Source of the DNA: a phage
Sequence record: PZ445511.1
Direction: 5' to 3' (one strand)
DNA: 64,000 nucleotides
In this document: piece by piece, positions 4,151 through 40,868 of the stretch
How positions within the stretch are numbered: position 1 is the stretch's first letter
Layout of the letters: each line of letters starts with the position of its first letter
Translations under genes and position numbers: made by a program
The notes under the pieces: generated by a model
What the model was told of the DNA's origin: nothing
Database searches by the model: none
What the model saw: the letters and a program-made list of their open reading frames with translations, nothing else

Positions 4151-4903
4151 ATGGGAAAAGCACGTCAAAAAAGAGAGAACCGCAATGGTTCAAGAAAGCG
4201 TGGCAACAAGTATGAGAGTAACGTAATTCAAGCAGATTTCTCTGGTGATTACGCCAATCCAGTTGCTAAATCCCTAGTTGGTAAAAACCGTGAGCAAAAA
4301 TCATATATCAATATGATCAAGAACAACACAGTGACTGTGGGTATTGGTGAACCAGGTACTGGTAAAACCTTTATTCCGTCCGTTCTTGCAGCTCAGGAAC
4401 TCGTAGACATTCACTCAGATATTGAGCAAGTGATCCTCGTGCGTCCGAACGAACCTCTAGGTAAATCTCTTGGTATGCTCCCAGGTGATCTGGCAGAAAA
4501 GCTAGAGCCTTGGTTGGAACCAATAGCCGATGGCATGAAATGGGCAATCGGTGATCACGCCTACAAAGGATATGTCGAACGTCAGAAAATTAAATTCCTG
4601 GCTATCGAACATGCCCGTGGCCGAACTTTCAACAACTCCTATGTAATTGTCGATGAAGCTCAGAATATCTCCGTTGAAGCAATGATCTGTCTCCTGACTC
4701 GTGTAGGACAAGATTGTCGTTTAATTATCTGTGGGGATATAGCGCAGAAAGACATCAAGGGTGATTCAGGTCTAGCACTTCTTATGGAAGTCTATGAGAA
4801 GTATGAAAACTCTCCTTTCTCTATGATCGAACTGATCGACAACGTTCGCTCACCAGAGTCTAAAGCATTCTACGATATCTTTAAGGATATGGGGAAGGTG
4901 TAA
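4151..4903 (+). CDS. phoH: PhoH-like ATPase
   Basis: Walker A GEPGTGKT; ORF track starts at GTG 4142, ATG 4151 has TAGGAG RBS. Confidence 0.8.
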   Translation: MGKARQKRENRNGSRKRGNKYESNVIQADFSGDYANPVAKSLVGKNREQKSYINMIKNNTVTVGIGEPGTGKTFIPSVLAAQELVDIHSDIEQVILVRPNEPLGKSLGMLPGDLAEKLEPWLEPIADGMKWAIGDHAYKGYVERQKIKFLAIEHARGRTFNNSYVIVDEAQNISVEAMICLLTRVGQDCRLIICGDIAQKDIKGDSGLALLMEVYEKYENSPFSMIELIDNVRSPESKAFYDIFKDMGKV

Positions 4904-4904
4904 T

Positions 4905-5147
4905 ATGGGAAACGTCGTACATCTGCACCGCAAAACTAAGATTCACCGTACTTCACTGAGTGCTGCTAATATGATTACACGTAAGGAAGGGGAAGAAAGT
5001 CCTAAGACTACCCTAGCGTGGAAAATTGTAGCCTCTAATCCAAATCGGCCTTTTAATTATAACGAATTGAGTACTTCTATAGACATTCTTATGGCTAAGG
5101 AAATACGACAGAAACTAACTGATATGACCGATAAACTTAAATGGTAA
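4905..5147 (+). CDS. hypothetical protein
   Basis: 80 aa ORF immediately after phoH. Confidence 0.45.
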   Translation: MGNVVHLHRKTKIHRTSLSAANMITRKEGEESPKTTLAWKIVASNPNRPFNYNELSTSIDILMAKEIRQKLTDMTDKLKW

Positions 5148-15803: not shown

Positions 15804-16067
15804 ATGATTTTTCATATTCTTATTGATGATGTGCGTAACCTTCATGGAATGGACATTATAATTCGAACCCCCGAAGCCGCTGTTGAGTTTCTGAATAAAA
15901 CCGATACCACAGGTCATTTCGTTTATATGGATAACGATCTGGCTGTAGATGATATGGAAGGTTATCAAATTCTTCGTTTACTCCTAGAATTTGGTCAGAG
16001 ACCCAAGAAAGTGGTACTAGTAACCTCGAACCCTTCGTCTAAGAGACCATGCGTAATGATCTCTTAG
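15804..16067 (+). CDS. hypothetical protein
   Basis: 87 aa ORF. Confidence 0.5.
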   Translation: MIFHILIDDVRNLHGMDIIIRTPEAAVEFLNKTDTTGHFVYMDNDLAVDDMEGYQILRLLLEFGQRPKKVVLVTSNPSSKRPCVMIS

Positions 16068-16125
16068 ACGAAGGGTATCAAGAAAGCCCTAATCGTATTG
16101 AGTACGATTGGCCGGAGTAAATAAA

Positions 16126-16815: not shown

Positions 16816-17258
16816 TGGAAGAGAATATTCTAGATGTTTTGCGTAGGGCTTTGCAGGAATCCAAGTTTGATGGTTCTGATAAAGAAGTAGCTAAAAGCTA
16901 CCAGACCATAATCGGAGATCTTCAGCGTGTTGATAAAGACTTCATTACTTCTGAACAGTTTATATCTTATCTAAAAGCTCAACTGAAAAGCATTAATCAG
17001 ACGAAAGCTAAACTTCACAGTCAAGATCTTGATAATTATAGCTTGCAGTCTGCTCAGTATGAATATATACTGAACAAATGGTTACAGCAGTATTTGCCTC
17101 CTCAGCTATCTGATTCTGAGATTCGCAAATACTTCGCAGAATTAGTTAAGCTGAATCCTGGGATTACAAAGGGTATGCTGATGAAAGCGATTAAGGAAGA
17201 GTTTCCTGGTCGTTACGACGGTGGCATTGCTGCTCAGGTTGCTGGCGAATTTAATTAA
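16815..17258 (+). CDS. GatB/YqeY-domain-like protein
   Basis: 147 aa; C-terminal GMLMKAIKEEFPGRYDGG resembles YqeY domain. Confidence 0.45.
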   Translation: MEENILDVLRRALQESKFDGSDKEVAKSYQTIIGDLQRVDKDFITSEQFISYLKAQLKSINQTKAKLHSQDLDNYSLQSAQYEYILNKWLQQYLPPQLSDSEIRKYFAELVKLNPGITKGMLMKAIKEEFPGRYDGGIAAQVAGEFN

Positions 17259-17266
17259 AAATTAAT

Positions 17267-17295
17267 TTGCTAAACGCTTCAAAATTCTGTATAAT
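17267..17295 (+). promoter_or_regulatory. early promoter (TTGCTA-17-TATAAT)
   Basis: promoter family member; -10 ends 6 nt before ATG 17302. Confidence 0.7.
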
Positions 17296-17301
17296 ATATT
17301 C

Positions 17302-17784
17302 ATGAAAAGGAAAGAATACCCTACTAAAGAAATACTTGAAAAATATTTTGTAGCTGATCCTGATAATGGGATACTATATAGGAAAACAAAGAAAGGTTTG
17401 AAAGAGTGTTGTGCCAATAATAAGAAATCACATCCAGATGTGGGATTTCAGGGCGACACCTATCAACTGCATGTCTTATTATTTATTATGTACTATGGAT
17501 ATAGGCCTGAAGAAGTAGATCATAAGGATACTAATCCTAGAAATAATAGGAAAAATAATCTAAGGGACGCCTCTAGATCGCAAAATAATGCGAATAGAAA
17601 CCAACAATGCAATAATACTTCTGGGTACAAAGGAGTAAGTTGGGAAGGCTCTTCCTGGAGATACCAAGTAAGACATGAAGGAAAAAATTACAGTAAAAGA
17701 GGGTTTAAAACTGCGGAAGAGGCTTTCGAGGCCTCTAAGATATTAAGAGAATCCTTACATAAAGAATTTACTAACTTTGGTTAG
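17302..17784 (+). CDS. HNH homing endonuclease (HNH plus AP2)
   Basis: 160 aa; YGYRPEEVDHKD..N..N and GYKGVSW motifs. Confidence 0.7.
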   Translation: MKRKEYPTKEILEKYFVADPDNGILYRKTKKGLKECCANNKKSHPDVGFQGDTYQLHVLLFIMYYGYRPEEVDHKDTNPRNNRKNNLRDASRSQNNANRNQQCNNTSGYKGVSWEGSSWRYQVRHEGKNYSKRGFKTAEEAFEASKILRESLHKEFTNFG

Positions 17785-18414
17785 TAATAGTGGGGTGCCG
17801 AAACCACTTATGTAACAACACTGCCGTCCTAGTATAATAGGTATTATTAGGGCTTCACCGCCTGAAGATGTGGGTTCGAGTCCCACGGTCGGAAAGAGTT
17901 GGATAACTGGTGCTTCTAATGGCGAAGCAATCGCAGGCAGTTGCGCACTGCCAAAACCACGCGGTAGTTGGTTCCAGGCTAACCAACCACTCTTGAAAAG
18001 TATATACTACGGTTTTGCTTGTTCAGGAAGCTTCGCATCGAAAATCGGAGGTGCGATTTTATCAGACCGCGTGGAGGACGTCTCTCCGTTAAGTGACGAA
18101 AAGTGGGACGATTCAGGTAGAGCTGGATATGGAACACCTATACATATGCGGAGTGCGCACAAAGCATATTGCGGTGGTACTAAACGAAATTAGGAGTCAT
18201 GACCTGCACAAGTTTAGTATGTCATAACCGATGTACATTCAGTACAAAAACCACTGAAGCTAAGATAGATAGTCACCTTGACTTAAACTGGAAGATATTG
18301 TCTGACGGAAGGGCTGCAGAGCTTAATCTGAGGGGGCTGACCCTACCTACCGTCGGGTATCTTTAAGAGTTCTTACGAGAACTCTTAAAGATACCTAAAC
18401 ATTAAGGAATACTG
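17785..18414 (+). ncRNA. structured non-coding region (T-arm-like element and 17-bp perfect hairpin); identity unresolved
   Basis: 630 bp without convincing ORF or promoter; gtgggttcgagtcccac at 17870-17886; hairpin 18357-18394. Confidence 0.3.
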
Positions 18415-18924
18415 ATGAATCTAGGAACTACTTGTATATTTGATCACAGAGAAATGTGTTGCCCACATATTCTGTATGTAGTTCACTTTGCAGAACGTCT
18501 TACTCTGGATGAAGCTCGTGAGAAAATGGGTGGAATTACTGGATATGATTTCCGTGAAGGTGAATACTTTAGCATTGCTCTTGATTACATTGACAATACC
18601 CGTCTCTATCATCTAGTGCAGCTAGGGGAAGAAACTGATGAAGTGAAAATGGCGAAAGATACTCTACGTCGTTATCGTCCTCAGATTCTAGAACGTACAC
18701 TTCGTGGAGAACGTAGTGACCCATTGTTCTTGAAGTGCTATGACGCAGATGTTAATGAGTATCTAGGACAGCAACGGTTTTACACTGAAATCAAAGAGTT
18801 TGTTCGTGAAAAATACGACGCTCTACTAATTGATTCCAGAGCACGACGTGCAGCTAAAAATGCTGAGAAATCTGCTAAAGCAGCACTAGAAAGCCAAACC
18901 AAACTGAACGAAATCGTTAAGTGA
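18415..18924 (+). CDS. hypothetical protein
   Basis: 169 aa ORF with AAGGAA RBS. Confidence 0.6.
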   Translation: MNLGTTCIFDHREMCCPHILYVVHFAERLTLDEAREKMGGITGYDFREGEYFSIALDYIDNTRLYHLVQLGEETDEVKMAKDTLRRYRPQILERTLRGERSDPLFLKCYDADVNEYLGQQRFYTEIKEFVREKYDALLIDSRARRAAKNAEKSAKAALESQTKLNEIVK

Positions 18925-18932
18925 TCTAATTT

Positions 18933-19004
18933 CGGGGTGTAGTCTAAGGGATAGGCAGGAGTCTTCTAAATTCCTTTATGCAGGTTCGAATCCTGTCACC
19001 TCGG
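18933..19004 (+). tRNA. tRNA-Arg(UCU)
   Basis: hand-folded cloverleaf: acceptor cggggtg/cacctcg, anticodon loop cttctaa, T-loop ttcgaat, CCA encoded. Confidence 0.7.
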
Positions 19005-19033
19005 CCAATCTTATTACCTGTTAGGAAAATAAA

Positions 19034-19234
19034 ATGAAAACACGATATATAGTAAAAGTAGTAGGTGAACATTCGCAAGTAAATACCACGGATGTTACAG
19101 CACTAGCATTTGAGGTAGTCTCCGGTATAGTCATATTTCATAATGGGGATATCAAAGCTCCTGAATTTGCTGTGGATGCTGGCCTGTTTATTTCTGCAAC
19201 TAAAGTAACTGTAGTAGCTAACTCTTCTAAATAA
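19034..19234 (+). CDS. hypothetical protein
   Basis: 66 aa ORF. Confidence 0.4.
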   Translation: MKTRYIVKVVGEHSQVNTTDVTALAFEVVSGIVIFHNGDIKAPEFAVDAGLFISATKVTVVANSSK

Positions 19235-22195: not shown

Positions 22196-22218
22196 ATAGC
22201 CCTCGCTTAGAGGGCTAT
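22196..22218 (+). terminator. hairpin terminator
   Basis: atagccctc-gctta-gagggctat; weak T tract. Confidence 0.45.
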
Positions 22219-22235
22219 TATACAGAAATTTTCAC

Positions 22236-22264
22236 TTGCTTAATATAGAAAATTTCTGTATAAT
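22236..22264 (+). promoter_or_regulatory. early promoter (TTGCTT-17-TATAAT)
   Basis: promoter family member. Confidence 0.7.
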
Positions 22265-22294
22265 ATATTTATAAATTTGAGAGAGGAATCAAAT

Positions 22295-33405: not shown

Positions 33406-33678
33406 ATGAAAGAAGCAGAAATTAATGAAATGGCTAGAATATTCATCGTTTCCTATATGCAAGGCAGTTGCAATAGTTTATTCGAGTCTGCTATAGTATT
33501 TCAGGAAATGTTAGCCGAGAAAGGCGTACATATGGAAGATACTGAAATTGAAGATCTTCTAATGGAAACTTGTAGTAGTGCTGAAGTCTTCCAGTGTGGT
33601 AACTGTAATTGGTGGTGTCCAGAGCATGATCGTTCTGAAGAAGGTTCCTACTGTTCCGATTGTGAAGGAGAAGAATAA
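33406..33678 (+). CDS. hypothetical protein with C-terminal Cys cluster
   Basis: 90 aa; CGNCNWWC...CSDC. Confidence 0.5.
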   Translation: MKEAEINEMARIFIVSYMQGSCNSLFESAIVFQEMLAEKGVHMEDTEIEDLLMETCSSAEVFQCGNCNWWCPEHDRSEEGSYCSDCEGEE

Positions 33679-33977
33679 TGAATAAGTTTATTATTGCTCT
33701 AGTAATTTCAGCAGTTAGTTTCGGTTCTCTGGCATCTACCAAAGTTTCTATGAAAAATGGTAATGTTAAAGTTCAGCAGAATGGCATTACCACCGAATAT
33801 GGTAAAGTACGTGATGTAAAAGAACGTAATGGCAAAGTAGAAATATATACTAATAAAAACTTCTCTACTCCGGCTGTTACTGTTAGTAAACGTGGTGAAA
33901 TCACTACTCAACGTACTAATAGTTCTGATTCTTTTACTTGCCGTTATGACTGCGGCTTTGAAGGTGAAGATGAGTAA
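33678..33977 (+). CDS. secreted small protein
   Basis: 99 aa with signal peptide. Confidence 0.5.
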   Translation: MNKFIIALVISAVSFGSLASTKVSMKNGNVKVQQNGITTEYGKVRDVKERNGKVEIYTNKNFSTPAVTVSKRGEITTQRTNSSDSFTCRYDCGFEGEDE

Positions 33978-34389
33978 TTTAGACCCTAGAATTAAACATG
34001 CAGTTGAAGAAATCCAAGATCAAATCGATGAGGATTTCACTGTTTGGTCAAGATTTGGTAATGGTGAAGGTTGTCAGCTTTATAACATGAAAATGGGTAT
34101 CTCGATTGAACTTAGTATCAATCCCGAGGGTAACGTAGAAGCCCAACCCATGTTCAGTGTTCCAGGCTTCTCTGGATTTGTTATGGGCATGAAACTATGT
34201 CTACCAAATAAACATCTTTACCGTGTTATCTGTCAGCTAGAAACAATTAAACATTTCTTGCCAGAAGATAACATTAATGACTACTATCATGAAGTTGTAG
34301 CAGCTTACATGATGAAAGAACGCAAACGTCGGAGAGCAGAACGTGAAAGAGCTAAATCTCAACAGTCTAGTACAGATTCCAGCAACTGA
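33970..34389 (+). CDS. hypothetical protein
   Basis: ATG 33970 in frame within ORF 33892..34389, overlapping upstream stop by 8 nt. Confidence 0.45.
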   Translation: MSNLDPRIKHAVEEIQDQIDEDFTVWSRFGNGEGCQLYNMKMGISIELSINPEGNVEAQPMFSVPGFSGFVMGMKLCLPNKHLYRVICQLETIKHFLPEDNINDYYHEVVAAYMMKERKRRRAERERAKSQQSSTDSSN

Positions 34390-34639
34390 TGCTGTACTAG
34401 ACTTCCCCAAGCAGGAACATATTAAGTTCTGGACTAACTATGCAGAACAGTACGAAGAAACTTCTAGTGCAATAACATTCGCGGATAAACGAATAGCTGA
34501 GTATACAGATCCTAGAGTTAAAAATGGTATGATTACCTTACCACTTTGGGATGTAATGGAAAAGTTTGGTAAAGATTTGTGCCCAGGTTGTATACCATTG
34601 TTTGTTACTATTCTAATTGACGAAAAGGATCTTAAATGA
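34343..34639 (+). CDS. hypothetical protein
   Basis: 98 aa; 47-nt overlap with upstream gene makes the start uncertain. Confidence 0.4.
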   Translation: MKELNLNSLVQIPATDAVLDFPKQEHIKFWTNYAEQYEETSSAITFADKRIAEYTDPRVKNGMITLPLWDVMEKFGKDLCPGCIPLFVTILIDEKDLK

Positions 34640-34920
34640 TTATCTCTCCATTTGCTTTGTGGTTTGTTATTGGTGCAGTTGTCGCGATTTACAGTCTGAT
34701 TGATGATCTGTATATCTCTAAAAATAAAGATGTTATTCTTTATGTTATAAACAAATATCGTCCGCCAGAATTAACAGAATTTGACGATGAAAAGATGTTC
34801 AAATTCATTATGTCAGGTATGCTTATTATGGACACCTTGTTCGGGCCAGTAGCTACTTATTTCTTCTTACGTAAAACTCGTAAGATGAAAAAGTTCCGTG
34901 CTGAAATGCAGAGCAAGTAA
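34636..34920 (+). CDS. small membrane protein
   Basis: 94 aa, two hydrophobic segments. Confidence 0.5.
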   Translation: MIISPFALWFVIGAVVAIYSLIDDLYISKNKDVILYVINKYRPPELTEFDDEKMFKFIMSGMLIMDTLFGPVATYFFLRKTRKMKKFRAEMQSK

Positions 34921-35036
34921 AGAACTCGCGTAGGACCGAGTTGCGTCACCTGCAACTGTTACGGATAAGGGAGTCGTGCCCCTTAGTGCGGTAAGTGGTG
35001 AGTTGGTCGCTGACCTCAACTTTAACTGGAGATATC

Positions 35037-35384
35037 ATGAGCTTTATTTTATTCATTGTAGCAGCATGGTTTATTATTGGTTTAGGCTATGCTATTGCAG
35101 TTATTCGTCATCTGGATGAATATTCTGCTGAATGGTTTATTAAGTACCTACGTTTAGACGATCAAGAACACGAGTTCGACAGTGCTGAGGAAAGACAGGC
35201 TGTCCAGTCAATGACTCCCAAAGAATGCTTGCTTTACATGCGTGTAATTGGTTTCTTTGGACTGTTGGTAGCGGGGCCGTTAGGTCTTACTATTGCTCCC
35301 TACAAAGAAGTTGTTGACGACATTAAACTATGGAGAACCGCTGGATCGCTACGTCGTGCTAGAGAATTAAGTAAACAAGAGTGA
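35037..35384 (+). CDS. small membrane protein
   Basis: ATG 35037 with GGAG RBS inside ORF 34995..35384. Confidence 0.5.
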   Translation: MSFILFIVAAWFIIGLGYAIAVIRHLDEYSAEWFIKYLRLDDQEHEFDSAEERQAVQSMTPKECLLYMRVIGFFGLLVAGPLGLTIAPYKEVVDDIKLWRTAGSLRRARELSKQE

Positions 35385-35419
35385 TGATAATCACCTCCTA
35401 GCAAGAATAATAATGACAA

Positions 35420-35455
35420 AGCCCAGCCTGCAATTTTGCGACTGGGCTATTTTTG
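35420..35455 (+). terminator. rho-independent terminator
   Basis: agcccag...ctgggct stem followed by TTTTT. Confidence 0.6.
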
Positions 35456-35469
35456 TAATAAAATTTCAG

Positions 35470-35498
35470 TTGCTCAGATGCCACAAGTATTGTATAAT
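35470..35498 (+). promoter_or_regulatory. early promoter (TTGCTC-17-TATAAT)
   Basis: promoter family member. Confidence 0.65.
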
Positions 35499-35529
35499 AT
35501 GTTTATAGATTGAGGCAAAAGGATAATTT

Positions 35530-36228
35530 ATGAGAATCATTTCAAAGTTCAATGATGTATACGATTTGCAGAATAGTTTATTTGATCCAGATCGTGTCTG
35601 GGAGCGTAAAACTGAAGAGCTGCTAGTAAAAGTAACTGACGATGTAGAAAAGAATATCGTTCATAATCGTCAGGTGTTTCGTGAGGGTTCCTTATCCTTC
35701 CGTGGTGACTTCGAATACTCAGTAAATCCACTGTTTATTGCAGGTGAAGTTTACTGGTTACATGAACTGTCCTGCTGGCATCCAGCATTCAGTTTCAAAA
35801 CGTTCAACATCGATGCTGTGTTCGATAAAATGGAAGAAATGGGATTACATGCCCGTTCTTACTTACTAGATAAGAATCGTGGTGATGTTCGTGAAACCAT
35901 GCGAGATATGTTGGTTGAAGCAAAACCTAAAGCAGAACGTATCTTATCTGAACTGCGCGTACCAATTGCATATGTGAAAGGTATTAAGAAGAACGATAAC
36001 GATGATGTTCGTAACTTCGTAATTCAGACAAACATTCGTTTCCATCAGTCAGGTATTCCGTGGCAGGAAATTGAAAGTAACTTATACCGTTTACACCAAG
36101 TTCTCGAACAGTATATTTTCGGTGTACTAGGAACTGGTGAGCCTGATATGATTACCGTATCAGATAAAGACAGGTTAGCAGCACATGGATTTGATACAAA
36201 AACTTCTTTCAGGAATATGGCAAGGTAA
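35530..36228 (+). CDS. hypothetical protein
   Basis: 232 aa ORF. Confidence 0.6.
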   Translation: MRIISKFNDVYDLQNSLFDPDRVWERKTEELLVKVTDDVEKNIVHNRQVFREGSLSFRGDFEYSVNPLFIAGEVYWLHELSCWHPAFSFKTFNIDAVFDKMEEMGLHARSYLLDKNRGDVRETMRDMLVEAKPKAERILSELRVPIAYVKGIKKNDNDDVRNFVIQTNIRFHQSGIPWQEIESNLYRLHQVLEQYIFGVLGTGEPDMITVSDKDRLAAHGFDTKTSFRNMAR

Positions 36229-36634
36229 GTGGTATATCCTGGGAGCTGGTCTTGCGATAGGTATCGGATTCGGTGCTTATCACTTAGTAAATAAGGTTGA
36301 AACTCTAGCTGGGGATCTTGCAGTTGCGGCTAAAAAGATCTCCACTCTAGAGACTTCCCTTAATAAGGTGAAAACTGAAAGTGAACTTCGGGAGACTCGA
36401 ATGAACCAGTATTTCACAATGAATAATATTTCGCAAGCAGATCTAGACAAAAAGATTAAGCAGTTAGATAAAGCTCTTAATCGTCAAGATGTTATCGCTG
36501 CAAAGCCTGGATTGGTAACATTAATTGCTAAAAAGCAGAATAAAGAGTTCGAGGAAAGATTAGCGTGTTTAACTGGAAACTTGGAGTACTGCTCGCAGCC
36601 GCAATCACAATCACAGGCTGTGCAGAAGAAATAA
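36185..36634 (+). CDS. membrane-anchored coiled-coil protein (i-spanin-like)
   Basis: N-terminal TM WYILGAGLAIGIGFGAY followed by coiled coil; overlaps next gene by 70 nt. Confidence 0.4.
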   Translation: MDLIQKLLSGIWQGKWYILGAGLAIGIGFGAYHLVNKVETLAGDLAVAAKKISTLETSLNKVKTESELRETRMNQYFTMNNISQADLDKKIKQLDKALNRQDVIAAKPGLVTLIAKKQNKEFEERLACLTGNLEYCSQPQSQSQAVQKK

Positions 36635-36918
36635 AACCAGAGCCATCCCATGAGTTAAAGCAAGCTCATATCGATTGGCCTAAAGGACTTCAGCCTTGTA
36701 GTTTTGATTTCAAATTCGAAAAGAAATTAGCTACAAATGGTGAAGATGGCGTAGTAGTTGTTGTACCTTACAAAGATTGGAATGCAAAAGCAAAATGCGA
36801 GGAAGCAGTTTACTCTTACATTTCACGACTGACCGGTATGGTTTGCTTCTATCGTCAGGATTTACAAGAAAAACGTTGCTTAGTTTATTATCCACCCATT
36901 ACAAATAGGAAAGATTAA
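36565..36918 (+). CDS. lipoprotein (o-spanin-like)
   Basis: signal peptide with lipobox ITGC; gene embedded in 3' end of preceding ORF. Confidence 0.45.
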   Translation: MFNWKLGVLLAAAITITGCAEEIKPEPSHELKQAHIDWPKGLQPCSFDFKFEKKLATNGEDGVVVVVPYKDWNAKAKCEEAVYSYISRLTGMVCFYRQDLQEKRCLVYYPPITNRKD

Positions 36919-37670
36919 TGTCAGTATTAGTCGGTTTACATGGTGAGGCTGGTGCGGGAAAAGATACTGTTGCAAAATTAATGATTGACTGGTGTAATGA
37001 CACGTTCCCAACGTGTTTATCCCGTCGTTATAGTTTTGCTAAACCCGTTTACGAACTTGCATCCGTAATCCTCGGGGTAACTCCAGAGTTTCTGGGAGAG
37101 CGCAGGGGAAAAGAGATTGACCAATGGTTTACGATCACACAATCTCAATTGGAGCGAGCTAGAGACGTATGGTTTAAGTATGGTATCGATAAGTTTGAGG
37201 ACTTCTCGTACGTTTGGCCGATTTTTGAAGGAAAATACCTTGATCCTCAGCAGTTAATTGGGCAAGCTGATGATGCGCTGTATAGCGTGTTTATCTCCCC
37301 AAGAAAAATGCTACAGCTTGTAGGTACTGAGTTAGGAAGGCAGCTGGTGCATGAACGCATTTGGCTCATAATTCTGGAGCAATCCATCGATAAAGACGAC
37401 CCAGACGTCGCAATCGTTACCGATGTGCGTTTCCCCAATGAGGGAGAGCTAATCATGGAAACCAATACTCTAGATATGGATTCCATGCTTATTAAGGTTG
37501 AATCTGGTATTACTAATAAGTATCGCATCGAGACAGATCATCCGTCTGAAAGCGGTATTCCTGAAAAATACATTTCTCATAAATTTGAGAATACCTTCAA
37601 CGGACTTGATGCACTTCGTACCGATGTGTACCACTTCTGTGACTTAGAGCTAGAACCACTAGTTGGATAA
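36918..37670 (+). CDS. dnk: deoxynucleoside monophosphate kinase
   Basis: 250 aa; P-loop GEAGAGKDT at N-terminus. Confidence 0.65.
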   Translation: MSVLVGLHGEAGAGKDTVAKLMIDWCNDTFPTCLSRRYSFAKPVYELASVILGVTPEFLGERRGKEIDQWFTITQSQLERARDVWFKYGIDKFEDFSYVWPIFEGKYLDPQQLIGQADDALYSVFISPRKMLQLVGTELGRQLVHERIWLIILEQSIDKDDPDVAIVTDVRFPNEGELIMETNTLDMDSMLIKVESGITNKYRIETDHPSESGIPEKYISHKFENTFNGLDALRTDVYHFCDLELEPLVG

Positions 37671-37682
37671 TTAAGGATCACT

Positions 37683-38282
37683 ATGACTAATAAGAAAGAA
37701 GAAAAGACTAACTTGTTTCACACTGTTCGCCAATCTAACGAATATACCTTTTTCTTTGATGAAGAATTAGGCTCACCGGATGAGTATCGTGACCTATCCA
37801 TGATACTTATGCAGGCTGGTGAAGAAGATGAAATTAATCTGATGATTAATGGGCCTGGTGGTTACGTTGATACTGCTGCACAACTATCTAACCTAATCGC
37901 TAACTGTCGTGGAACGGTTATTGGACACCTGCTCGGTCCTAGTGCTTCTGCTTACTGTACAATCTTCCTGTCTTGCCACGGTTGGGTTGTACATCCACAT
38001 GCTACGCTTATGGGACATACGTTCTCTGGCGGATTCTGCGAGAAAGGTCAAGAAATCAAGAAAGCCTATGAATCCTACAACCAGTTTGTAGAAGATATGA
38101 TGCTAGATATTTACTTTCCGTTCTTCTCTGTCGACGAAATCGAGGATATGGTAAAAGAGAATAAGAATATCTATCTCAACAGCAAAGAAATCAATAAGCG
38201 TATTGAAATTTTGGCGAATTATCGTAAAGAGCAGTGTAGTAAAGCTCAAGCCCCGCATCCAGAAGAACATGGAGAAGTGTAA
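37683..38282 (+). CDS. ClpP-like serine protease
   Basis: 199 aa; INGPGGYV and GPSASAY motifs. Confidence 0.5.
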   Translation: MTNKKEEKTNLFHTVRQSNEYTFFFDEELGSPDEYRDLSMILMQAGEEDEINLMINGPGGYVDTAAQLSNLIANCRGTVIGHLLGPSASAYCTIFLSCHGWVVHPHATLMGHTFSGGFCEKGQEIKKAYESYNQFVEDMMLDIYFPFFSVDEIEDMVKENKNIYLNSKEINKRIEILANYRKEQCSKAQAPHPEEHGEV

Positions 38283-38291
38283 GTAGTTTTA

Positions 38292-38320
38292 AGCCAGAGT
38301 TTAACGACTCTGGCTTTTCT
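38292..38320 (+). terminator. rho-independent terminator
   Basis: agccagagt-ttaacg-actctggct followed by TTTT. Confidence 0.65.
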
Positions 38321-38385
38321 TTTGCCTAAAATTCTTCTTGACAACGACAAAAAATTGTGCTCCAGAAGTGATCTTAAAAAACACA

Positions 38386-38414
38386 TTGTAATTTTACTCT
38401 AGAATTAGTATAAT
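38386..38414 (+). promoter_or_regulatory. promoter (TTGTAA-17-TATAAT) for lysis genes
   Basis: hexamers with 17-bp spacer upstream of holin; TTGACA hexamer at 38338 has no matching -10. Confidence 0.5.
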
Positions 38415-38438
38415 GGTAGTGGTTAGAGGAGGTTACAA

Positions 38439-39095
38439 GTGGAAAAGTTTATACAACTATTAACGATACTGCTACAAGAAGCGAAAGATCCAGCTTCGCT
38501 ACTAAAACGTCTGCTAACTATCTTAGTTGCTGTCATTATTTTCTTGTTTATAAGTAACACTAGCGAGGTGATGTCATTTTTAAAGACTTTCTCCACGTCT
38601 TCGGTTTTACAGGATGTTCAAACCCAAAGGATAGATAACTTTCCTAATGTAGCACGAGAAAAGAGTATGGTTCTTTTCTCCCAGACTGGTGCGGATGCCG
38701 TTTTTGTAGTAAAGTATAAACCAGATGCTATAAATGATTATTCAAACATTATTGCATGGGAAAGCAATGCGCAATTGGATAGGGCTGACTTGGCCGATAA
38801 AGCAGTAAACAAGACGTCTGAACTTTATAGACGTCACCTGGAAGGCTTTAACTATGCTGCGGATTTAAGTGTAAAAGTAAATAAATATACGGGGTCAAAT
38901 ATACCAGCGTTTAAGAACATTACTTTTAATTACGTCTACACTTGTCCATATTTCAACCTAAATAATATCTATGCTGGATACATAGGTATTGCATGGAAGG
39001 ATAAACCCGTAGATACAGCTGATTCGGAACAATTTAATGAGTACTTAGCAAAGCTCTGTTCCCCACAACGGAGATCATTAGGTAGATCTATATGA
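38439..39095 (+). CDS. holin-like membrane protein
   Basis: 218 aa, GTG start with GAGGAGG RBS, N-terminal TM, directly upstream of and overlapping endolysin. Confidence 0.55.
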   Translation: MEKFIQLLTILLQEAKDPASLLKRLLTILVAVIIFLFISNTSEVMSFLKTFSTSSVLQDVQTQRIDNFPNVAREKSMVLFSQTGADAVFVVKYKPDAINDYSNIIAWESNAQLDRADLADKAVNKTSELYRRHLEGFNYAADLSVKVNKYTGSNIPAFKNITFNYVYTCPYFNLNNIYAGYIGIAWKDKPVDTADSEQFNEYLAKLCSPQRRSLGRSI

Positions 39096-39505
39096 GTTTT
39101 AAATTTGGTAAAAATAGCGAAAAACAATTAGCAACTGTTAAGCCCGAGCTACAGAAGGTAGCTCGTAGGGCTTTAGAATTATCTCCATATGATTTCACAA
39201 TCGTACAGGGTATTCGTACAGTAGCACAAAGTGCCCAAAACATTGCTAATGGTACTTCATTTTTGAAAGACCCTAGCAAAAGTAAGCATGTAACTGGAGA
39301 CGCTATCGATTTTGCACCATATATTAATGGTAAGATTGATTGGAAAGATCTGGAAGCATTTTGGGCTGTTAAGAAGGCTTTTGAACAAGCTGGTAAGGAA
39401 CTTGGTGTCAAACTTCGTTTTGGTGCCGACTGGAATAGTTCTGGTGATTATCATGATGAGATCGATCGTGGTACTTACGACGGTGGTCACGTAGAATTAG
39501 TCTGA
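39092..39505 (+). CDS. endolysin, L-alanyl-D-glutamate peptidase type
   Basis: 137 aa; size and sequence fit my recollection of T5-type Zn peptidase endolysin. Confidence 0.7.
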   Translation: MSFKFGKNSEKQLATVKPELQKVARRALELSPYDFTIVQGIRTVAQSAQNIANGTSFLKDPSKSKHVTGDAIDFAPYINGKIDWKDLEAFWAVKKAFEQAGKELGVKLRFGADWNSSGDYHDEIDRGTYDGGHVELV

Positions 39506-39516
39506 TAATAAATCAA

Positions 39517-39539
39517 GGCGGGGTAATTCCCGCCTTTTA
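39517..39539 (+). terminator. rho-independent terminator
   Basis: aggcggg-gtaatt-cccgcct followed by TTTT. Confidence 0.6.
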
Positions 39540-39580
39540 AAGCAAAGGGGGCTTTAAAAACTTAATGATAGGAGAAAGCC

Positions 39581-39997
39581 ATGTTTGCAGAACTATTCAC
39601 CATGATATTACTAGGAATATGGAAAATAAGCCTAGTAGTTTTCATCTTAATGATAATTCTCACTGTTGTCGCACTAGTTACCCAAAATGATACATTAAAG
39701 AAAGTCGTTCATGGGCTAGAGTATATAATTATGGGCACATTCGGCGTTTGCAAATGCAACTGCCAGAGGAATACGAAATATTGTTGGCTTTGGATGGAGT
39801 TAGAGAACTGCATCACAGTAGCCTTGGCTGTCTCATTCGGTATGATTCTTATGGCCCTTACTCTAGCATTGATACCACTAATGTTAGCTGGGGGAGTCAC
39901 GGCTTATTTCACCCTTTTCTCCCCTATACTTATGTATTCAATATACCCAATAACTATGTACTTAGTTAGGAAGAGATTCCCACATCAAGCACACTAA
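39581..39997 (+). CDS. polytopic membrane protein
   Basis: 138 aa, several hydrophobic helices. Confidence 0.5.
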   Translation: MFAELFTMILLGIWKISLVVFILMIILTVVALVTQNDTLKKVVHGLEYIIMGTFGVCKCNCQRNTKYCWLWMELENCITVALAVSFGMILMALTLALIPLMLAGGVTAYFTLFSPILMYSIYPITMYLVRKRFPHQAH

Positions 39998-40010
39998 TAT
40001 AAAAAAGTAG

Positions 40011-40039
40011 TTGACTTTCCGCTGAAATTTTTATATAAT
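40011..40039 (+). promoter_or_regulatory. early promoter (TTGACT-17-TATAAT)
   Basis: 17-bp spacer. Confidence 0.7.
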
Positions 40040-40072
40040 ATTTGTATAAATTGAATCAGAGGAGTTTCACAA

Positions 40073-40483
40073 ATGTCAGATCGTTACTATACTCAGATGG
40101 CTAACCATTACAATATGGCTCCGTATGAATTGAACATCGCATTACGTGACCTCGATTCACCAGAGCGTGCAAAACTTGAGAAAAAGGCGGGAATTCGTAT
40201 GTCTAGCAAGGGCAAGAAACTTACTCGTATTGACTTAAATACCATGCTAATGGAAGAGCTTGGCGTGAATATTGAAGGTCAGAAGTTGCCTCTCAATGTT
40301 CTTGAAACGATGCTGGATAAAGTCAAGAAGAAAACCTATAAGAAAGTACAAGTACCGGAAGGCAGGCTAAAAGCCCCTTATCAAGCTGCTGTATCCGAGT
40401 GCTTAGGTGCTACCTTAGATCTTAGCACTGCAACTGTCAAGGTAATGAAAGGCTTTTTGGAGGCCATTAATAAACATGAGTAA
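40073..40483 (+). CDS. hypothetical protein
   Basis: 136 aa with GAGGAG RBS. Confidence 0.55.
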   Translation: MSDRYYTQMANHYNMAPYELNIALRDLDSPERAKLEKKAGIRMSSKGKKLTRIDLNTMLMEELGVNIEGQKLPLNVLETMLDKVKKKTYKKVQVPEGRLKAPYQAAVSECLGATLDLSTATVKVMKGFLEAINKHE

Positions 40484-40766
40484 ATTAATATATCTATTAA
40501 AAGGTTCCACTTGCAACCCATGTAAACTTTTCGAGCCTGTATTCGATAAAGTAGTACAGGGCTACAGTCTAGAAGTTCATAAAGAGACTGATAATACAGA
40601 ACTTATGCAGAAGTTCGGTGTTAGACAAGTTCCTGTAGTAGTTCTAGCAGATCGTCTACCGAATGGTCGTGTGGAAGCCAACCACATTCTGATTGGTCGT
40701 CAGCTTCGTAAGGAAACTATGCACGATGCAATCAAAAACTTCCTGGAAGATAATCCAGAAGATTAA
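40476..40766 (+). CDS. thioredoxin/glutaredoxin-like redoxin (CNPC active site)
   Basis: 96 aa; CxxC near N-terminus in thioredoxin-fold context; likely RNR reductant. Confidence 0.55.
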   Translation: MSKLIYLLKGSTCNPCKLFEPVFDKVVQGYSLEVHKETDNTELMQKFGVRQVPVVVLADRLPNGRVEANHILIGRQLRKETMHDAIKNFLEDNPED

Positions 40767-40773
40767 TAAATCC

Positions 40774-40805
40774 AACCCAGATCTTAGCTGATCTGGGTTT
40801 TTCTT
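40774..40805 (+). terminator. rho-independent terminator
   Basis: aacccagatc-ttagct-gatctgggtt followed by TTTTTC. Confidence 0.65.
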
Positions 40806-40808
40806 TAT

Positions 40809-40837
40809 TTGCTAAACGCTTAAAATTTTGATATAAT
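40809..40837 (+). promoter_or_regulatory. early promoter (TTGCTA-17-TATAAT)
   Basis: promoter family member. Confidence 0.7.
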
Positions 40838-40868
40838 ATACCTATAAACTTGAGAAAGGAACCAGATA

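What the first reader, a model, noticed from the sequence alone, without database searches (positions are those of the whole stretch)
17785..18414. 630-bp structured non-coding region ending in a 17-bp perfect hairpin
The stretch between the HNH gene and the next CDS has no promoter-family member and no credible ORF (the 107-aa ORF-track entry runs through GC-rich structure). It contains a T-arm-like GTGGGTTCGAGTCCCAC and a perfect 17-bp stem GTATCTTTAAGAGTTCT/AGAACTCTTAAAGATAC (18357-18394) with no U tract. This suggests a stable RNA or a protein-binding palindrome.
Basis: seen in the sequence. Interest (0 to 1): 0.45.

Follow-up and report, generated by a model that had tools for sequence, protein, structure and literature searches.

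The report
Phage T5-family large structured RNA (RNAX)
The 630-bp "empty" stretch is a roughly 610-nucleotide, elaborately folded non-coding RNA gene, a homologue of phage T5's little-studied "RNAX", which is conserved across T5-like phages at the head of their tRNA gene cluster and whose function is still unknown.

Summary
Window 17785-18414 has no conserved ORF. It contains a tRNA-like cloverleaf (17823-17894) and ends in a perfect hairpin, which is 18 bp rather than 17 (18356-18395).

The window is a T5-like Salmonella phage, 100% identical to phage bux. The stretch is the homologue of rnaX, annotated in the T5 reference genome as "stable RNA with unknown functions". It lies between promoter P16-17 and tRNA-Arg(UCU).

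I collected 45 distinct homologues (587-889 nt), plus divergent copies in Pectobacterium, Pantoea and Proteus phages. Invariant sequence islands alternate with variable hairpins.

Covariation supports:
- a 12-bp long-range helix that encloses the tRNA-like domain;
- the cloverleaf arms;
- a hairpin whose invariant loop carries the palindrome GUCAUGAC;
- a multi-helix 3' junction;
- the terminal hairpin, whose G-U pairs put the RNA on the + strand.

Rfam has no family for it; only the tRNA model matches. The T5 st0 deletion removes it and BF23 has a truncated copy, so it is dispensable in the laboratory.

Best reading: a trans-acting structured RNA cut out of the early tRNA-operon transcript. 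It resembles ROOL and GOLLD RNAs in size, setting and organisation, but it is not a member of either family. It is a known but neglected element, and its function is open.

The parts
17267..17295 (+). Sigma-70-type early promoter (TTGCTA-17-TATAAT), the counterpart of T5 promoter P16-17. Here it is separated from the RNA by the inserted HNH ORF.
   Evidence: Promoter scan, 10 of 12 matches. The same promoter lies directly upstream of rnaX in T5 and L025.
17302..17784 (+). HNH homing-endonuclease ORF inserted between the promoter and the RNAX core. Context only, not part of the RNA family.
   Evidence: PF13392 at 1.2e-11 and phrog_99. It is absent at this position in T5, DT57C and L025.
17786..17802 (+). 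Conserved 5' segment AAUAGUGGGGUG..GAA. Its pairing partner is not established.
   Evidence: Invariant columns G5-G12 in 45 homologues.
17803..17816 (+). P1 helix, 5' strand (ACCACUUAUGUAAC).
   Evidence: Pairs with 17898-17911. 100% of cells are paired in 33 distinct sequences and 98.9% with distant phages added, with 7 of 12 pairs changed on both sides.
17823..17894 (+). tRNA-like cloverleaf. Acceptor-like stem 17823-29/17887-93; D stem 17832-35/17844-47; short anticodon-like stem 17850-53/17860-63; T arm 17870-74/17882-86.
   Evidence: ARAGORN and Rfam tRNA at 33 bits. All four arms covary. The domain is replaced by a plain hairpin in L006/L007 and in Proteus phage 2.
17898..17911 (+). P1 helix, 3' strand (GUUGGAUAACUGGU).
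   Evidence: The helix also appears in the single-sequence MFE fold.
17912..17928 (+). Hairpin H2 (GCUUC-UAAUGGC-GAAGC).
   Evidence: 95.5% paired on A2, where the stem variants GCUUC/GAAGC, GCUUUU/AAAAGC, GCUUAU/AUAAGC and GGUUC/GAACC are seen. 94.1% paired on A7, with 5 of 6 pairs changed on both sides.
17929..18177 (+). Variable central region. Conserved islands (AAACCAC, AUCGGAG, AGUGGGA) are separated by hairpins that differ in sequence and length between phage types. Examples: helix GGCAG/CUGCC at 17936-52, and helix CCGC/GUGG at 18067-70/18103-06 closing an insert of 3 to about 120 nt.
   Evidence: Read by eye from the alignments. GGCAG/CUGCC becomes GCUG/CAGC around an 80-nt insert in the L006 and Klebsiella types. 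Not formally counted.
18178..18219 (+). Hairpin E1. Outer stem 18178-85/18212-19, inner stem 18191-94/18203-06, and an 8-nt loop AGUCAUGA (18195-18202) carrying the invariant palindrome GUCAUGAC.
   Evidence: The loop is invariant in all 45 homologues and is also present in DU_PP_V, AAS21 and Proteus phage 2. The stem covaries: 94.5% paired, 9 of 12 pairs changed on both sides, 0 of 500 shuffles as high. The window copy was not matched by model R3; its fold comes from the MFE predictions.
18217..18236 (+). Hairpin E2 (GUAUGU-CAUAACCG-AUGUAC).
   Evidence: In relatives, 98.9% paired with all 5 pairs changed on both sides. The window form is from alignment and MFE.
18271..18291 (+). Most conserved island: hairpin AGUCA-CCU-UGACU followed by UAAACUGG.
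   Evidence: 99.2% paired and near invariant. The same 21-mer recurs in unrelated viral contigs.
18292..18363 (+). 3' junction. Helix a-b 18292-97/18358-63; Pa 18302-08/18350-56; Pb 18313-15/18320-22; conserved CUUAAU; Pc 18331-34/18341-44.
   Evidence: Alignment A5, made with model R1: 95% of cells paired. Helix a-b is 100% paired, with G-C exchanged for A-U in 10 sequences. Pb is 96% paired. 0 of 500 shuffles reach the paired percentage or the covariation score. In DU_PP_V, Pa is fully rewritten as UUGACUAG/CUAGUCAG.
18356..18395 (+). Terminal hairpin: 18 perfect pairs in this phage, loop UACG. Its lower part (18358-63) can pair instead with 18292-97.
   Evidence: Perfect 18-nt inverted repeat. 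98.4% paired across homologues with G-U wobbles, but a C.A mismatch at one column in 7 of 26 sequences, whereas a-b is never mismatched. The hairpin sequence is at least 90% identical (mostly 93-100%) in the T5-like records listed, out of 457 records with a match.
18933..19007 (+). tRNA-Arg(UCU). In most relatives it follows the terminal hairpin after only 5-6 nt; here a 169-aa ORF (18415-18924) is inserted between them.

Best explanation
The stretch is the bux-phage copy of rnaX, a large structured non-coding RNA gene of the T5 family (Demerecviridae), read from the + strand.

**Shown here**
- It is homologous and syntenic with T5 rnaX, lying between promoter P16-17 and tRNA-Arg(UCU).
- It has no conserved reading frame.
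- Its fold is conserved through compensatory changes: a 12-bp helix (P1) encloses a tRNA-like cloverleaf; hairpin H2 follows; then a variable central region; hairpin E1 displays the invariant palindrome GUCAUGAC in its loop; hairpin E2 follows; and a 3' multi-helix junction ends in a long hairpin.

**Inferred**
- The RNA is made early from the sigma-70 promoter. In this phage it is the 3' part of the HNH endonuclease transcript.
- In most relatives its 3' end is set by RNase P cutting at the adjoining tRNA-Arg.
- The compact fold then persists as a stable trans-acting RNA.

**Most likely mode of action (inference by analogy)**
It acts as an RNA scaffold of the ROOL/GOLLD kind, meaning a large phage RNA from a tRNA island that acts through its architecture. 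It could self-associate through the palindromic E1 loop. In most lineages the tRNA-like elbow would be an optional adaptor for tRNA-binding factors. The cellular target is unknown. The RNA is dispensable for growth on laboratory hosts.
For: **Identity and homology**
- The window is 100% identical to Salmonella phage bux.
- The homologous stretch is annotated rnaX, 'stable RNA with unknown functions', in T5 and DT57C.
- 45 distinct homologues of 587-889 nt occur at the same locus.
- The family extends to Sugarlandvirus, Pectobacterium phage DU_PP_V, Pantoea phage AAS21 and Proteus phage 2.

**Non-coding**
- No ORF is conserved.

**Structure**
- 5' domain: 91.9% of cells paired, 27 of 38 pairs changed on both sides, 0 of 500 shuffles as high on any measure, and 30-44% paired when partners are slid.
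- 3' domain: 95% paired.
- E1 and E2: 94.5% paired, 9 of 12 pairs changed on both sides.
- Frequent G-U pairs fix the strand as +.

**Transcription and processing context**
- The promoter lies directly upstream in T5 and L025.
- tRNA-Arg abuts the terminal hairpin in most relatives.

**Analogy with ROOL and GOLLD**
- Those RNAs are encoded in phages and prophages, often near tRNA islands. tRNAs sometimes sit in the GOLLD linker. Conserved symmetric palindromic kissing loops hold the multimers together (PMC12286853, read).
Against: - No expression data could be examined. 'Stable RNA' rests on a GenBank note whose underlying experiment I could not read.
- Rfam models of ROOL, GOLLD and every other family give no match, even at E up to 10. 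The ROOL/GOLLD comparison is therefore only an analogy.
- The palindromic loop never varies, so self-pairing cannot be tested by covariation. The loop is also complementary to the arms of the conserved 18271-83 hairpin, which allows an intramolecular alternative.
- The central 250 nt is not solved, and the partner of the invariant 5' AGUGGGGUG is unknown.
- The element is deleted in viable T5 st0 and truncated in BF23, so any function is conditional.
- Alignments made with the covariance models lean towards the modelled structure.
Confidence: 0.6

Rival explanations
1. tRNA mimic or decoy. The functional part would be the tRNA-like cloverleaf, either as a sponge for host tRNA-targeting nucleases or tRNA-binding proteins, or as a genuine opal-suppressor or 'Sec' tRNA as some pipelines annotate it. 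The remaining 500 nt would be accessory.
For: - Rfam tRNA scores 33 bits and ARAGORN reports anticodon UCA.
- The T arm and D arm are conserved and covary.
- The element sits in the tRNA cluster of a phage family whose tRNAs are reported to counter tRNA-cleaving defences (BF23 paper PMC10644984, citing Azam 2023 and van den Berg 2023; read).
- The upstream neighbour is a YqeY-like, 'tRNA amidotransferase'-type protein (phrog_1460; Pfam YqeY at 25.2 bits, just below its 27-bit cut-off).
Against: - The acceptor-like stem has G.A and U.U mismatches in this phage. It is buried inside helix P1, with no free ends and no CCA.
- The anticodon-like arm is a 3-4 bp stem with a 6-nt loop whose sequence differs between phages. 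In Klebsiella types it is replaced by a long hairpin.
- Annotation pipelines call it Sec, Ser, Pro, Arg, OTHER or pseudo in different records.
- The whole cloverleaf is replaced by a plain hairpin in L006/L007 and in Proteus phage 2, while P1 and H2 are kept.
- The most conserved parts of the RNA lie elsewhere: the E1 loop, the 21-mer and the terminal hairpin.
Confidence: 0.15
2. Cis-acting leader of the tRNA operon. RNAX would control processing or yield of the downstream tRNA-Arg(UCU), for example through the mutually exclusive pairings a-b (18292-97/18358-63) and b-c (18358-63/18388-93) next to the RNase P site.
For: - RNAX precedes tRNA-Arg(UCU) in T5-like, Sugarlandvirus, Hongcheonvirus, Novosibvirus and AAS21 genomes.
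- Three-way covariation among segments a, b and c fits two alternative conformers.
- BF23 lacks both the 3' part of RNAX and tRNA-Arg.
Against: - In this window, in 26175V and L031, and in Sugarlandvirus and AAS21, one or two ORFs separate RNAX from tRNA-Arg, yet the RNA is not degraded.
- Six hundred conserved nucleotides with an invariant palindromic loop are far more than a processing signal needs.
- The T5 annotators list it as a separate stable RNA species.
Confidence: 0.12
3. A ribozyme, such as a relative of group I introns or lariat-capping ribozymes, or a new self-cleaving or processing RNA.
For: - Size, conserved single-stranded islands and multi-helix junctions are ribozyme-like.
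- The 21-nt island AGUCACCYUGACUWWAACUGG lies just upstream of sub-threshold GIR1-like matches in two RNA-virus contigs (L083 at E 7e-9, L096 at E 1e-4).
Against: - No Rfam ribozyme or intron model matches RNAX or five homologues at E up to 10.
- RNAX lacks the P7/P3/P8 core sequences seen in those virus contigs.
- No split host gene flanks it, so there are no exons.
Confidence: 0.05
4. A DNA-level element: the palindromes would be protein-binding, homing-endonuclease or replication sites rather than RNA structure.
For: - A perfect 18-bp inverted repeat and the GTCATGAC palindrome are present.
- The locus is a hot spot for HNH endonuclease insertions.
- The minus strand also folds well.
Against: - Most homologues keep the terminal stem through G-U pairs, so the DNA is an imperfect palindrome.
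- Long-range helices such as P1 covary over 80-95 nt, which a DNA site would not require.
Confidence: 0.03
5. Protein-coding: the 107-aa ORF (17870-18193) and the 55-aa ORF (18199-18366), as annotated in some GenBank records such as PMBT36.
For: - The ORFs exist in the window and are annotated as hypothetical proteins in PP926504.
- Residues 2-41 of the 107-aa ORF match phrog_19105.
Against: - The ORFs are not conserved. Frames are broken by indels, and stop-free runs are mostly 40-60 codons in relatives, in varying frames.
- There is no Pfam hit.
- The GTG start lies inside the T arm.
- The PHROG match covers only the nucleotide-conserved 5' domain and is best explained as a family of spurious ORF calls.
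Confidence: 0.02

Closest known systems
Bacteriophage T5 rnaX (RNAX): misc_RNA in NC_005859/AY543070, AY734508 and DT57C NC_027356
   Same: - Same locus: after the yqeY-like gene and promoter P16-17, and before tRNA-Arg(UCU).
- About 80% identity over the first 243 nt and about 72% over the last 130 nt.
- Same islands, the same P1 helix, E1 loop and terminal hairpin.
   Different: - The middle third is too diverged for BLAST, and individual hairpins have been swapped.
- T5 carries an extra 83-nt duplication in the 3' domain.
- In the window an HNH ORF separates the promoter from the RNA, and a 169-aa ORF separates the RNA from tRNA-Arg.
ROOL RNA (Rfam RF03087)
   Same: - About 600 nt and highly structured.
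- Encoded by phages and prophages, often near tRNA islands.
- No known protein partner.
- Reported as non-essential (PMC12286853).
   Different: - No covariance-model match.
- Different sequence and helices.
- Different hosts: Gram-negative enterobacterial T5-like phages.
- Multimer formation has not been tested for RNAX.
GOLLD RNA (Rfam RF01998)
   Same: - A large phage RNA near tRNA genes.
- A conserved 3' region with a more variable remainder.
- tRNAs sometimes embedded in the RNA.
- Conserved symmetric palindromic kissing loops.
   Different: - No covariance-model match.
- RNAX is smaller (about 600-900 nt).
- Its embedded element is a degenerate tRNA-like domain closed by a helix, not a functional tRNA.
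tRNA (Rfam RF00005) and tRNA-like domains of other RNAs, such as the tmRNA TLD and YrlA (comparison from general knowledge)
   Same: A cloverleaf with a canonical T loop (GGUUCGAnUCC) and a GG-containing D loop. It scores above the Rfam tRNA gathering threshold.
   Different: - The acceptor stem is not terminal.
- The anticodon arm is degenerate and variable.
- There is no CCA.
- The domain is dispensable in two lineages.
- ARAGORN finds no tmRNA, and Rfam reports no YrlA match.

Membership tests
T5 rnaX (RNAX) family | Position between the yqeY-like gene with promoter P16-17 and tRNA-Arg(UCU), on the same strand | tested here: met
   An HNH ORF and a 169-aa ORF are inserted in this phage.
T5 rnaX (RNAX) family | Sequence and structure homology to the T5 and DT57C rnaX annotations | tested here: met
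   BLAST: 79-80% identity over query positions 3-243 and 72% over 485-616. Covariance models R2 and R1 match the window and T5/DT57C end to end.
T5 rnaX (RNAX) family | Accumulates as a discrete stable RNA during infection | not testable with these tools
   Only the GenBank note 'stable RNA with unknown functions' is available. No transcriptome of a T5-like phage was found in the paper library.
tRNA (RF00005) | Cloverleaf scoring above the Rfam gathering threshold | tested here: met
   33 bits against 29. Relatives range from 26.6 to 39 bits.
tRNA (RF00005) | Seven-nucleotide anticodon loop with a conserved anticodon identity | tested here: not met
   A 6-nt loop closed by 3-4 bp. The loop reads UUCACC here, GUAACU in T5 types, and is a long hairpin in Klebsiella types. 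Pipelines assign six different identities.
tRNA (RF00005) | Free acceptor end that can be matured (5' leader cut, 3' CCA) | tested here: not met
   The acceptor-like stem is continued by the covarying helix P1 on both sides. There is no CCA, and the stem has two mismatches in the window.
ROOL / GOLLD | Match to the family covariance model | tested here: not met
   No hit at E up to 10 in the window, and none in five homologues.
ROOL / GOLLD | RNA-only homo-oligomer held by kissing loops | not testable with these tools
   Only the invariant palindromic loop GUCAUGAC is seen.
Group I intron / GIR1 lariat-capping ribozyme | Covariance-model match and a P3-P7-P8 core | tested here: not met
   No hit. 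The core sequences seen in the virus contigs L083 and L096 are absent from RNAX.
tmRNA | tRNA-like domain formed by the two ends, plus a tag reading frame | tested here: not met
   ARAGORN reports no tmRNA in the window, and Rfam finds none.
Intrinsic terminator | GC-rich hairpin followed by a U tract | tested here: not met
   The stem is AU-rich (28% GC) and no T run follows. The terminator scan finds none here.
Protein-coding gene | Reading frame conserved among homologues | tested here: not met

The most novel reading that the evidence does not exclude
RNAX would be a third, independent family of giant 'ornate' phage RNAs alongside GOLLD and ROOL. On this reading it assembles into RNA-only dimers or higher multimers through the invariant GUCAUGAC kissing loop, uses its tRNA-like elbow to engage the tRNA or translation machinery during T5 infection, and can toggle its 3' end between two conformers. 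The shared 21-nt module found in RNA viruses would be a mobile RNA building block.
Probability: 0.2. Interest if true: 0.8.

Novelty: new member of a known kind. Interest (0 to 1): 0.55.

Why it matters
T5 is a classic model phage, and T5-like phages are common therapy and biocontrol candidates. Nearly all of them carry this 600-900-nt RNA at the head of their tRNA cluster, and hundreds of records hold it.

It is absent from Rfam. In most GenBank records it is unannotated or misannotated, as 'tRNA-Sec', 'tRNA-OTHER' or a string of hypothetical proteins. It has no assigned function.

The structural map given here covers the P1-enclosed tRNA-like domain, the invariant palindromic loop, the 3' junction and a possible switch. 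It makes RNAX directly testable in a genetically tractable E. coli/Salmonella system.

That system could also serve as an experimental handle on an open question: what large structured RNAs in phage tRNA islands, such as ROOL and GOLLD, are for.

There is an immediate practical gain as well. Recognising RNAX would remove spurious ORFs and false suppressor or selenocysteine tRNA calls from phage annotations.

Tried and rejected
- **Rfam.** Searches of the window, five homologues and 30 motif-bearing contigs found only tRNA in RNAX.
- **Coding.** Rejected because no frame is conserved and there is no Pfam hit.
- **Automated covariation scans.** Scanning all column pairs gave thousands of spurious pairs, because the sequences fall into only a few phylogenetic types. 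These were abandoned in favour of helix-by-helix inspection followed by formal counts.
- **Structure-aware MAFFT.** MAFFT Q-INS-i was not available.
- **Averaged base-pair probabilities.** These recovered only local hairpins.
- **An 8-bp pairing in the window.** CCACGCGG (17957-64) with CCGCGUGG (18067-74) pairs perfectly in the window, but relatives have one strand without the other. I treat it as unproven.
- **5' leader hairpin.** A GUG..CAC hairpin in the leader was considered and replaced by the long-range helix P1, which covaries.
- **E1 loop pairing in cis with the 21-mer hairpin.** This is possible in most types. It is not conserved in AAS21, where the palindrome persists.
- **Co-occurrence test.** The palindrome does not co-occur with the 21-mer in other contigs.
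- **More distant homologues.** Pattern scans of viral, metagenome and genome collections returned T5-like phages plus unrelated carriers of the 21-mer.
- **Literature.** Searches for RNAX, T5 transcriptomes and the motif sequence found nothing relevant.
- **Model R3.** It did not reach threshold on the window's own E1/E2 copy or on DU_PP_V and Proteus phage 2.
Full report
**1.

The region 17000-19200 is 100% identical to Salmonella phage bux (Epseptimavirus, Demerecviridae), and more than 440 T5-like phage records match it. The window carries 28 tRNA-type genes, all on the + strand.

The finding's stretch runs from the stop of an HNH endonuclease ORF (17302-17784; PF13392) to the start of a 169-aa ORF at 18415. 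That ORF has no family match.

- The quoted T-arm string is at 17870-17886. It belongs to a full tRNA-like cloverleaf, called by ARAGORN ('tRNA-SeC', tca) and by Rfam tRNA at 33 bits, just above the gathering score of 29.
- The terminal inverted repeat is perfect and is 18 bp, not 17 (18356-18373 with 18378-18395, loop UACG). It is one of two perfect 18-nt inverted repeats in the 64-kb window.
- No T run follows the hairpin, and the terminator scan finds nothing.
- No promoter-like site lies inside the stretch. The nearest is TTGCTA-17-TATAAT at 17267-17295.

**2. It is not coding**

The 107-aa ORF exists only in the bux-type sequence. Across 17 representative homologues the longest + strand stop-free runs are mostly 40-60 codons. 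They sit in different frames and places, and the alignments are full of indels that are not multiples of three. There is no Pfam hit. The only PHROG hit is phrog_19105, a 45-aa family of unknown function. It covers residues 2-41, which is exactly the nucleotide-conserved 5' domain. It is best read as a family built from spurious ORF calls.

**3. It is the homologue of T5 rnaX**

- The T5 reference genome (NC_005859/AY543070) and the 8.2-kb T5 fragment AY734508 annotate the syntenic stretch as misc_RNA rnaX, 'stable RNA with unknown functions'. It is 719 nt, starts at promoter P16-17 and ends at tRNA-Arg.
- DT57C carries the same annotation at 636 nt.
- Another T5 record (AY587007) marks only a pseudo-tRNA there.
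- Most other records show 'tRNA-OTHER', 'tRNA-Sec', 'tRNA-Ser', 'tRNA-Pro', 'tRNA-Arg', hypothetical proteins, or nothing.
- An alignment of promoter regions shows that in the window the HNH ORF sits exactly between the P16-17-type promoter and the conserved RNA core, replacing T5's short 5' leader.
- At the other end, most relatives run from the terminal hairpin into tRNA-Arg after 5-6 nt (..AUACUUAAA|CGGGGUGUAG). The window, 26175V and L031 have the 169-aa ORF inserted there.
- AY734508 records that the viable st0 deletion (33667-41891) removes rnaX.
- In BF23 the element is cut off inside the T arm by the hegA endonuclease gene. BF23 also lacks tRNA-Arg (PMC10644984).

The RNA is therefore dispensable on laboratory hosts.

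**4. Family and architecture**

From IMG/VR, GenBank phage records and metagenomes I extracted 45 distinct copies of 587-889 nt.

- BLAST sees only the first 243 nt or so (about 80% identity) and the last 44-130 nt. The middle is conserved in a different subset of phages.
- Aligned, the copies show invariant islands: AGUGGGGUG, CACUUAUGU, AACACUGCC, GGAAAGA, GAUAACU, AAACCAC, UCGGAG, GGAGUCAUGACC, AUAACCAC, AGUCACCYUGACUWWAACUGGA, CUUAA and the terminal hairpin.
- Between the islands are hairpins that differ in sequence and length. Whole modules are swapped between lineages; for example, L072 has a T5-type 5' half and a Sugarlandvirus-type 3' junction.
- More distant members occur in Klebsiella Sugarlandvirus (about 840-890 nt), Pectobacterium phage DU_PP_V (Mccorquodalevirinae), Pantoea phage AAS21 and, in rearranged form, Proteus phage 2 (Novosibvirus). 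In each case the element lies ahead of tRNA-Arg.
- The terminal hairpin sequence alone is at least 90% identical (mostly 93-100%) in the records listed, out of 457 with a match.

**5. Secondary structure supported by covariation**

*5' domain (alignments A2 and A7).* A 12-bp long-range helix P1 (17803-17816 with 17898-17911) has two conserved mismatches, C.C and G.G. It encloses the tRNA-like domain, and hairpin H2 (17912-17928) follows.
- On the MAFFT alignment, P1 is paired in 100% of cells in 33 distinct sequences, with 5 pairs changed on both sides.
- With DU_PP_V, AAS21, Proteus phage 2 and BF23 added, the whole 38-pair structure is 91.9% paired and 27 pairs change on both sides. No shuffle out of 500 reaches any of the five measures. 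Sliding the partners by 1-3 columns drops pairing to 30-44%.
- The acceptor-like, D, anticodon-like and T stems all covary. The anticodon-like arm is only 3-4 bp with a 6-nt loop of variable sequence, and it becomes a long hairpin in some Klebsiella phages.
- In L006/L007 and Proteus phage 2 the entire cloverleaf is replaced by a simple hairpin while P1 and H2 persist.
- The tRNA-like unit is therefore an internal, optional cap on a long helix. It is not a decoding tRNA.

*E1 and E2 (model R3, alignment A10).* A hairpin with an invariant 8-nt loop AGUCAUGA (window 18195-18202) and a second hairpin are 94.5% paired, with 9 of 12 pairs changed on both sides and 0 of 500 shuffles as high. The window's own copy fell below R3's threshold. 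Both its MFE and its partition function show the same hairpin with the loop unpaired.

*3' domain (model R1, alignment A5).* It contains:
- the hairpin AGUCA-CCU-UGACU (18271-83);
- helix a-b (18292-97/18358-63), 100% paired, with G-C exchanged for A-U in 10 sequences;
- Pa (18302-08/18350-56);
- Pb (18313-15/18320-22);
- Pc (18331-34/18341-44);
- the upper terminal hairpin (18364-73/18378-87), 100% paired.

Overall it is 95% paired, and 0 of 500 shuffles reach the paired percentage or the covariation score. In DU_PP_V, Pa is entirely rewritten as UUGACUAG/CUAGUCAG.

*Central region.* Two further helices are visible by eye and were not formally counted. GGCAG/CUGCC becomes GCUG/CAGC around an 80-nt insert. 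CCGC/GUGG closes inserts of 3 to about 120 nt.

**6. Strand, and RNA versus DNA**

Folding energy is significant on both strands. The conserved helices, however, are full of G-U pairs. Examples are U-G in 17-25 sequences at two P1 positions, and G-U or U-G in 19-24 of 26 sequences in the terminal hairpin. These would be C.A mismatches in the opposite strand and imperfect palindromes in DNA. All neighbouring genes and tRNAs are also on the + strand. This rules out the 'protein-binding palindrome' alternative.

**7. A possible switch at the 3' end**

The lower half of the 5' arm of the hairpin (segment b) can pair with the 3' arm (segment c), giving the full 17-18-bp hairpin, or with upstream segment a, extending Pa.
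- At the discriminating column, a-b is a standard pair in 26 of 26 distinct sequences (G-C 15, A-U 10, G-U 1).
- At the same column, b-c is a standard pair in 19 of 26; the other 7 have C.A.

In the window both pairings are perfect. I cannot say whether this reflects two functional conformers or a single a-b state.

**8. What it is not**

Rfam 15 gives only the tRNA hit, even with permissive filters at E up to 10 on the window and on five homologues. There is no match to ROOL, GOLLD, group I intron, GIR1, RNase P, tmRNA, YrlA, T-box or any small ribozyme. The paper library holds no description of RNAX or of T5-like transcriptomes.

**9. Most likely mode of action**

*Shown:* a conserved, non-coding, + strand fold placed between an early promoter and a tRNA.

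*Inferred from the anatomy:* the RNA is transcribed early. In bux it is the 3' part of the HNH mRNA, so its 5' end must come from processing. Its 3' end is set by RNase P at tRNA-Arg where the two abut. The compact fold survives as a stable species, as the T5 annotators state.

The closest functional analogues are ROOL and GOLLD. These are large RNAs of phages and prophages, often found near tRNA islands, sometimes with tRNAs embedded, reported as non-essential (ROOL), and held in RNA-only multimers by conserved symmetric palindromic kissing loops (PMC12286853). RNAX shares the size, the setting, the embedded tRNA-like unit, the variable linker regions and an invariant palindromic loop. I therefore favour a trans-acting architectural RNA that may self-associate. 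This is an analogy and has not been tested.

The rivals are less well supported, for the reasons listed under each: a tRNA-mimic decoy, a cis-acting leader for tRNA-Arg, a ribozyme, a DNA site, or a coding gene.

**10. Side observation**

The most conserved 21-mer of RNAX (18271-18291) was used as a loose pattern against JGI metagenomes.
- Besides T5-like phages, about 16 unrelated contig families carry it with the same restricted choices at the free positions (AGUCACC[CU]UGACU[AU][AU]AACUGG). If those positions were random, only about 10% of chance hits would show these choices.
- Several carriers are RNA viruses: RdRP_4, RdRP_3, a tenui-like nucleocapsid and an S-domain coat protein. The motif sits just 3' of a stop codon.
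- The same pattern occurs once in 596 Gb of prokaryote genomes, which is about the chance expectation.
- In two RNA-virus contigs it is followed by a sub-threshold match to the GIR1 lariat-capping ribozyme. In L083 that match ends at the start codon of the next ORF, which has a basic N-terminus like a capsid protein.
- RNAX itself has no GIR1-like core.

The meaning of this shared module is unexplained.

**11. Verdict**

The finding is real and the 'stable RNA' reading is right. The element is not new in kind, because T5's rnaX has been in GenBank for two decades. It is, however, uncharacterised, absent from Rfam and widely misannotated. The structural map here is, as far as the searchable sources show, new. 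Interest is moderate to good. It would be high if the ROOL/GOLLD-like behaviour were confirmed.

Noticed in passing
window 18271-18291; loci L064, L069, L070, L074, L083/L088, L085/L101, L086/L105, L090, L093, L096, L104, L106, L107, L110, L112, L113: The 21-nt RNAX island AGUCACCYUGACUWWAACUGG recurs in about 16 unrelated metagenomic contig families, including RNA viruses (RdRp and coat or nucleocapsid ORFs). In the contigs where an upstream ORF was identified, it lies just 3' of the stop codon. It occurs only once in 596 Gb of prokaryote genomes. It may be a mobile RNA module; its function is unknown.
   Followed up: partly
L083 2920-3096; L096 2675-2839: Sub-threshold matches to the GIR1 lariat-capping ribozyme (44 bits at E 7e-9; 35 bits at E 1e-4; gathering score 100). 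They lie between the RdRp ORF and the next ORF of two unrelated RNA-virus contigs, directly after the 21-mer. In L083 the match ends at the start codon of a downstream ORF with a basic N-terminus, possibly the coat protein. This could be ribozyme-made capped subgenomic RNAs in RNA viruses.
   Followed up: partly
window 17302-17784 with promoter 17267-17295: The HNH homing-endonuclease ORF starts only about 7 nt after the -10 box, so it would be a leaderless or near-leaderless mRNA. It is inserted exactly between the rnaX promoter and the RNAX core. JLBYU43 has the same insertion, and BF23 has a different HNH gene (hegA) inserted inside the RNAX T arm.
   Followed up: partly
L025 3982-4166; also L121 4235-4362 and L119 4760-5130: In phages without the HNH insertion, a further 130-370 nt of GC-richer sequence lies between the promoter and the RNAX core. 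It ends in a conserved ..(C)GUAAACUCUUCU.. motif. It may be an additional 5' domain of the RNA.
   Followed up: no
window 17870-18193 (107-aa ORF): phrog_19105 (unknown function, 45-aa profile) matches residues 2-41 of this non-conserved ORF. The PHROG is probably built from spurious ORF calls over the RNAX 5' domain.
   Followed up: partly
L004/L030 (T5) and L091, within the 3' domain: T5 and one metagenomic relative carry an insertion of about 83 nt that duplicates the AGUCACCUUGAC..AAACUGGAA island. This accounts for T5's longer rnaX.
   Followed up: no
L120 (Proteus phage 2) 4650-5224: The order of RNAX-like modules appears rearranged. A GUCAUGAC-loop hairpin (about 4955-4975) and a T-arm-like element (about 4757-4775) lie upstream of the P1/H2 domain (5016-5126), which directly precedes tRNA-Arg. 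This may be a circular permutation of the RNA.
   Followed up: no
window 22216-22265 and 16030-16076: A second perfect 18-nt inverted repeat (TATTATACAGAAATTTTC, 14-nt spacer) lies in the tRNA region. A 21-nt, 95% complementary hairpin lies just upstream of the cell-wall hydrolase gene.
   Followed up: no
window 18415-18924: The 169-aa ORF inserted between RNAX and tRNA-Arg has no Pfam or PHROG match. It is present in only some lineages (bux, 26175V, L031, L007).
   Followed up: no
phage records OR848805, OR847704 ('Listeria phage') and MG065692 ('Campylobacter phage C13'): These records carry near-identical T5-type RNAX sequence. The host labels look like contamination or mislabelling of T5-like coliphage or Salmonella phage DNA.
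   Followed up: no
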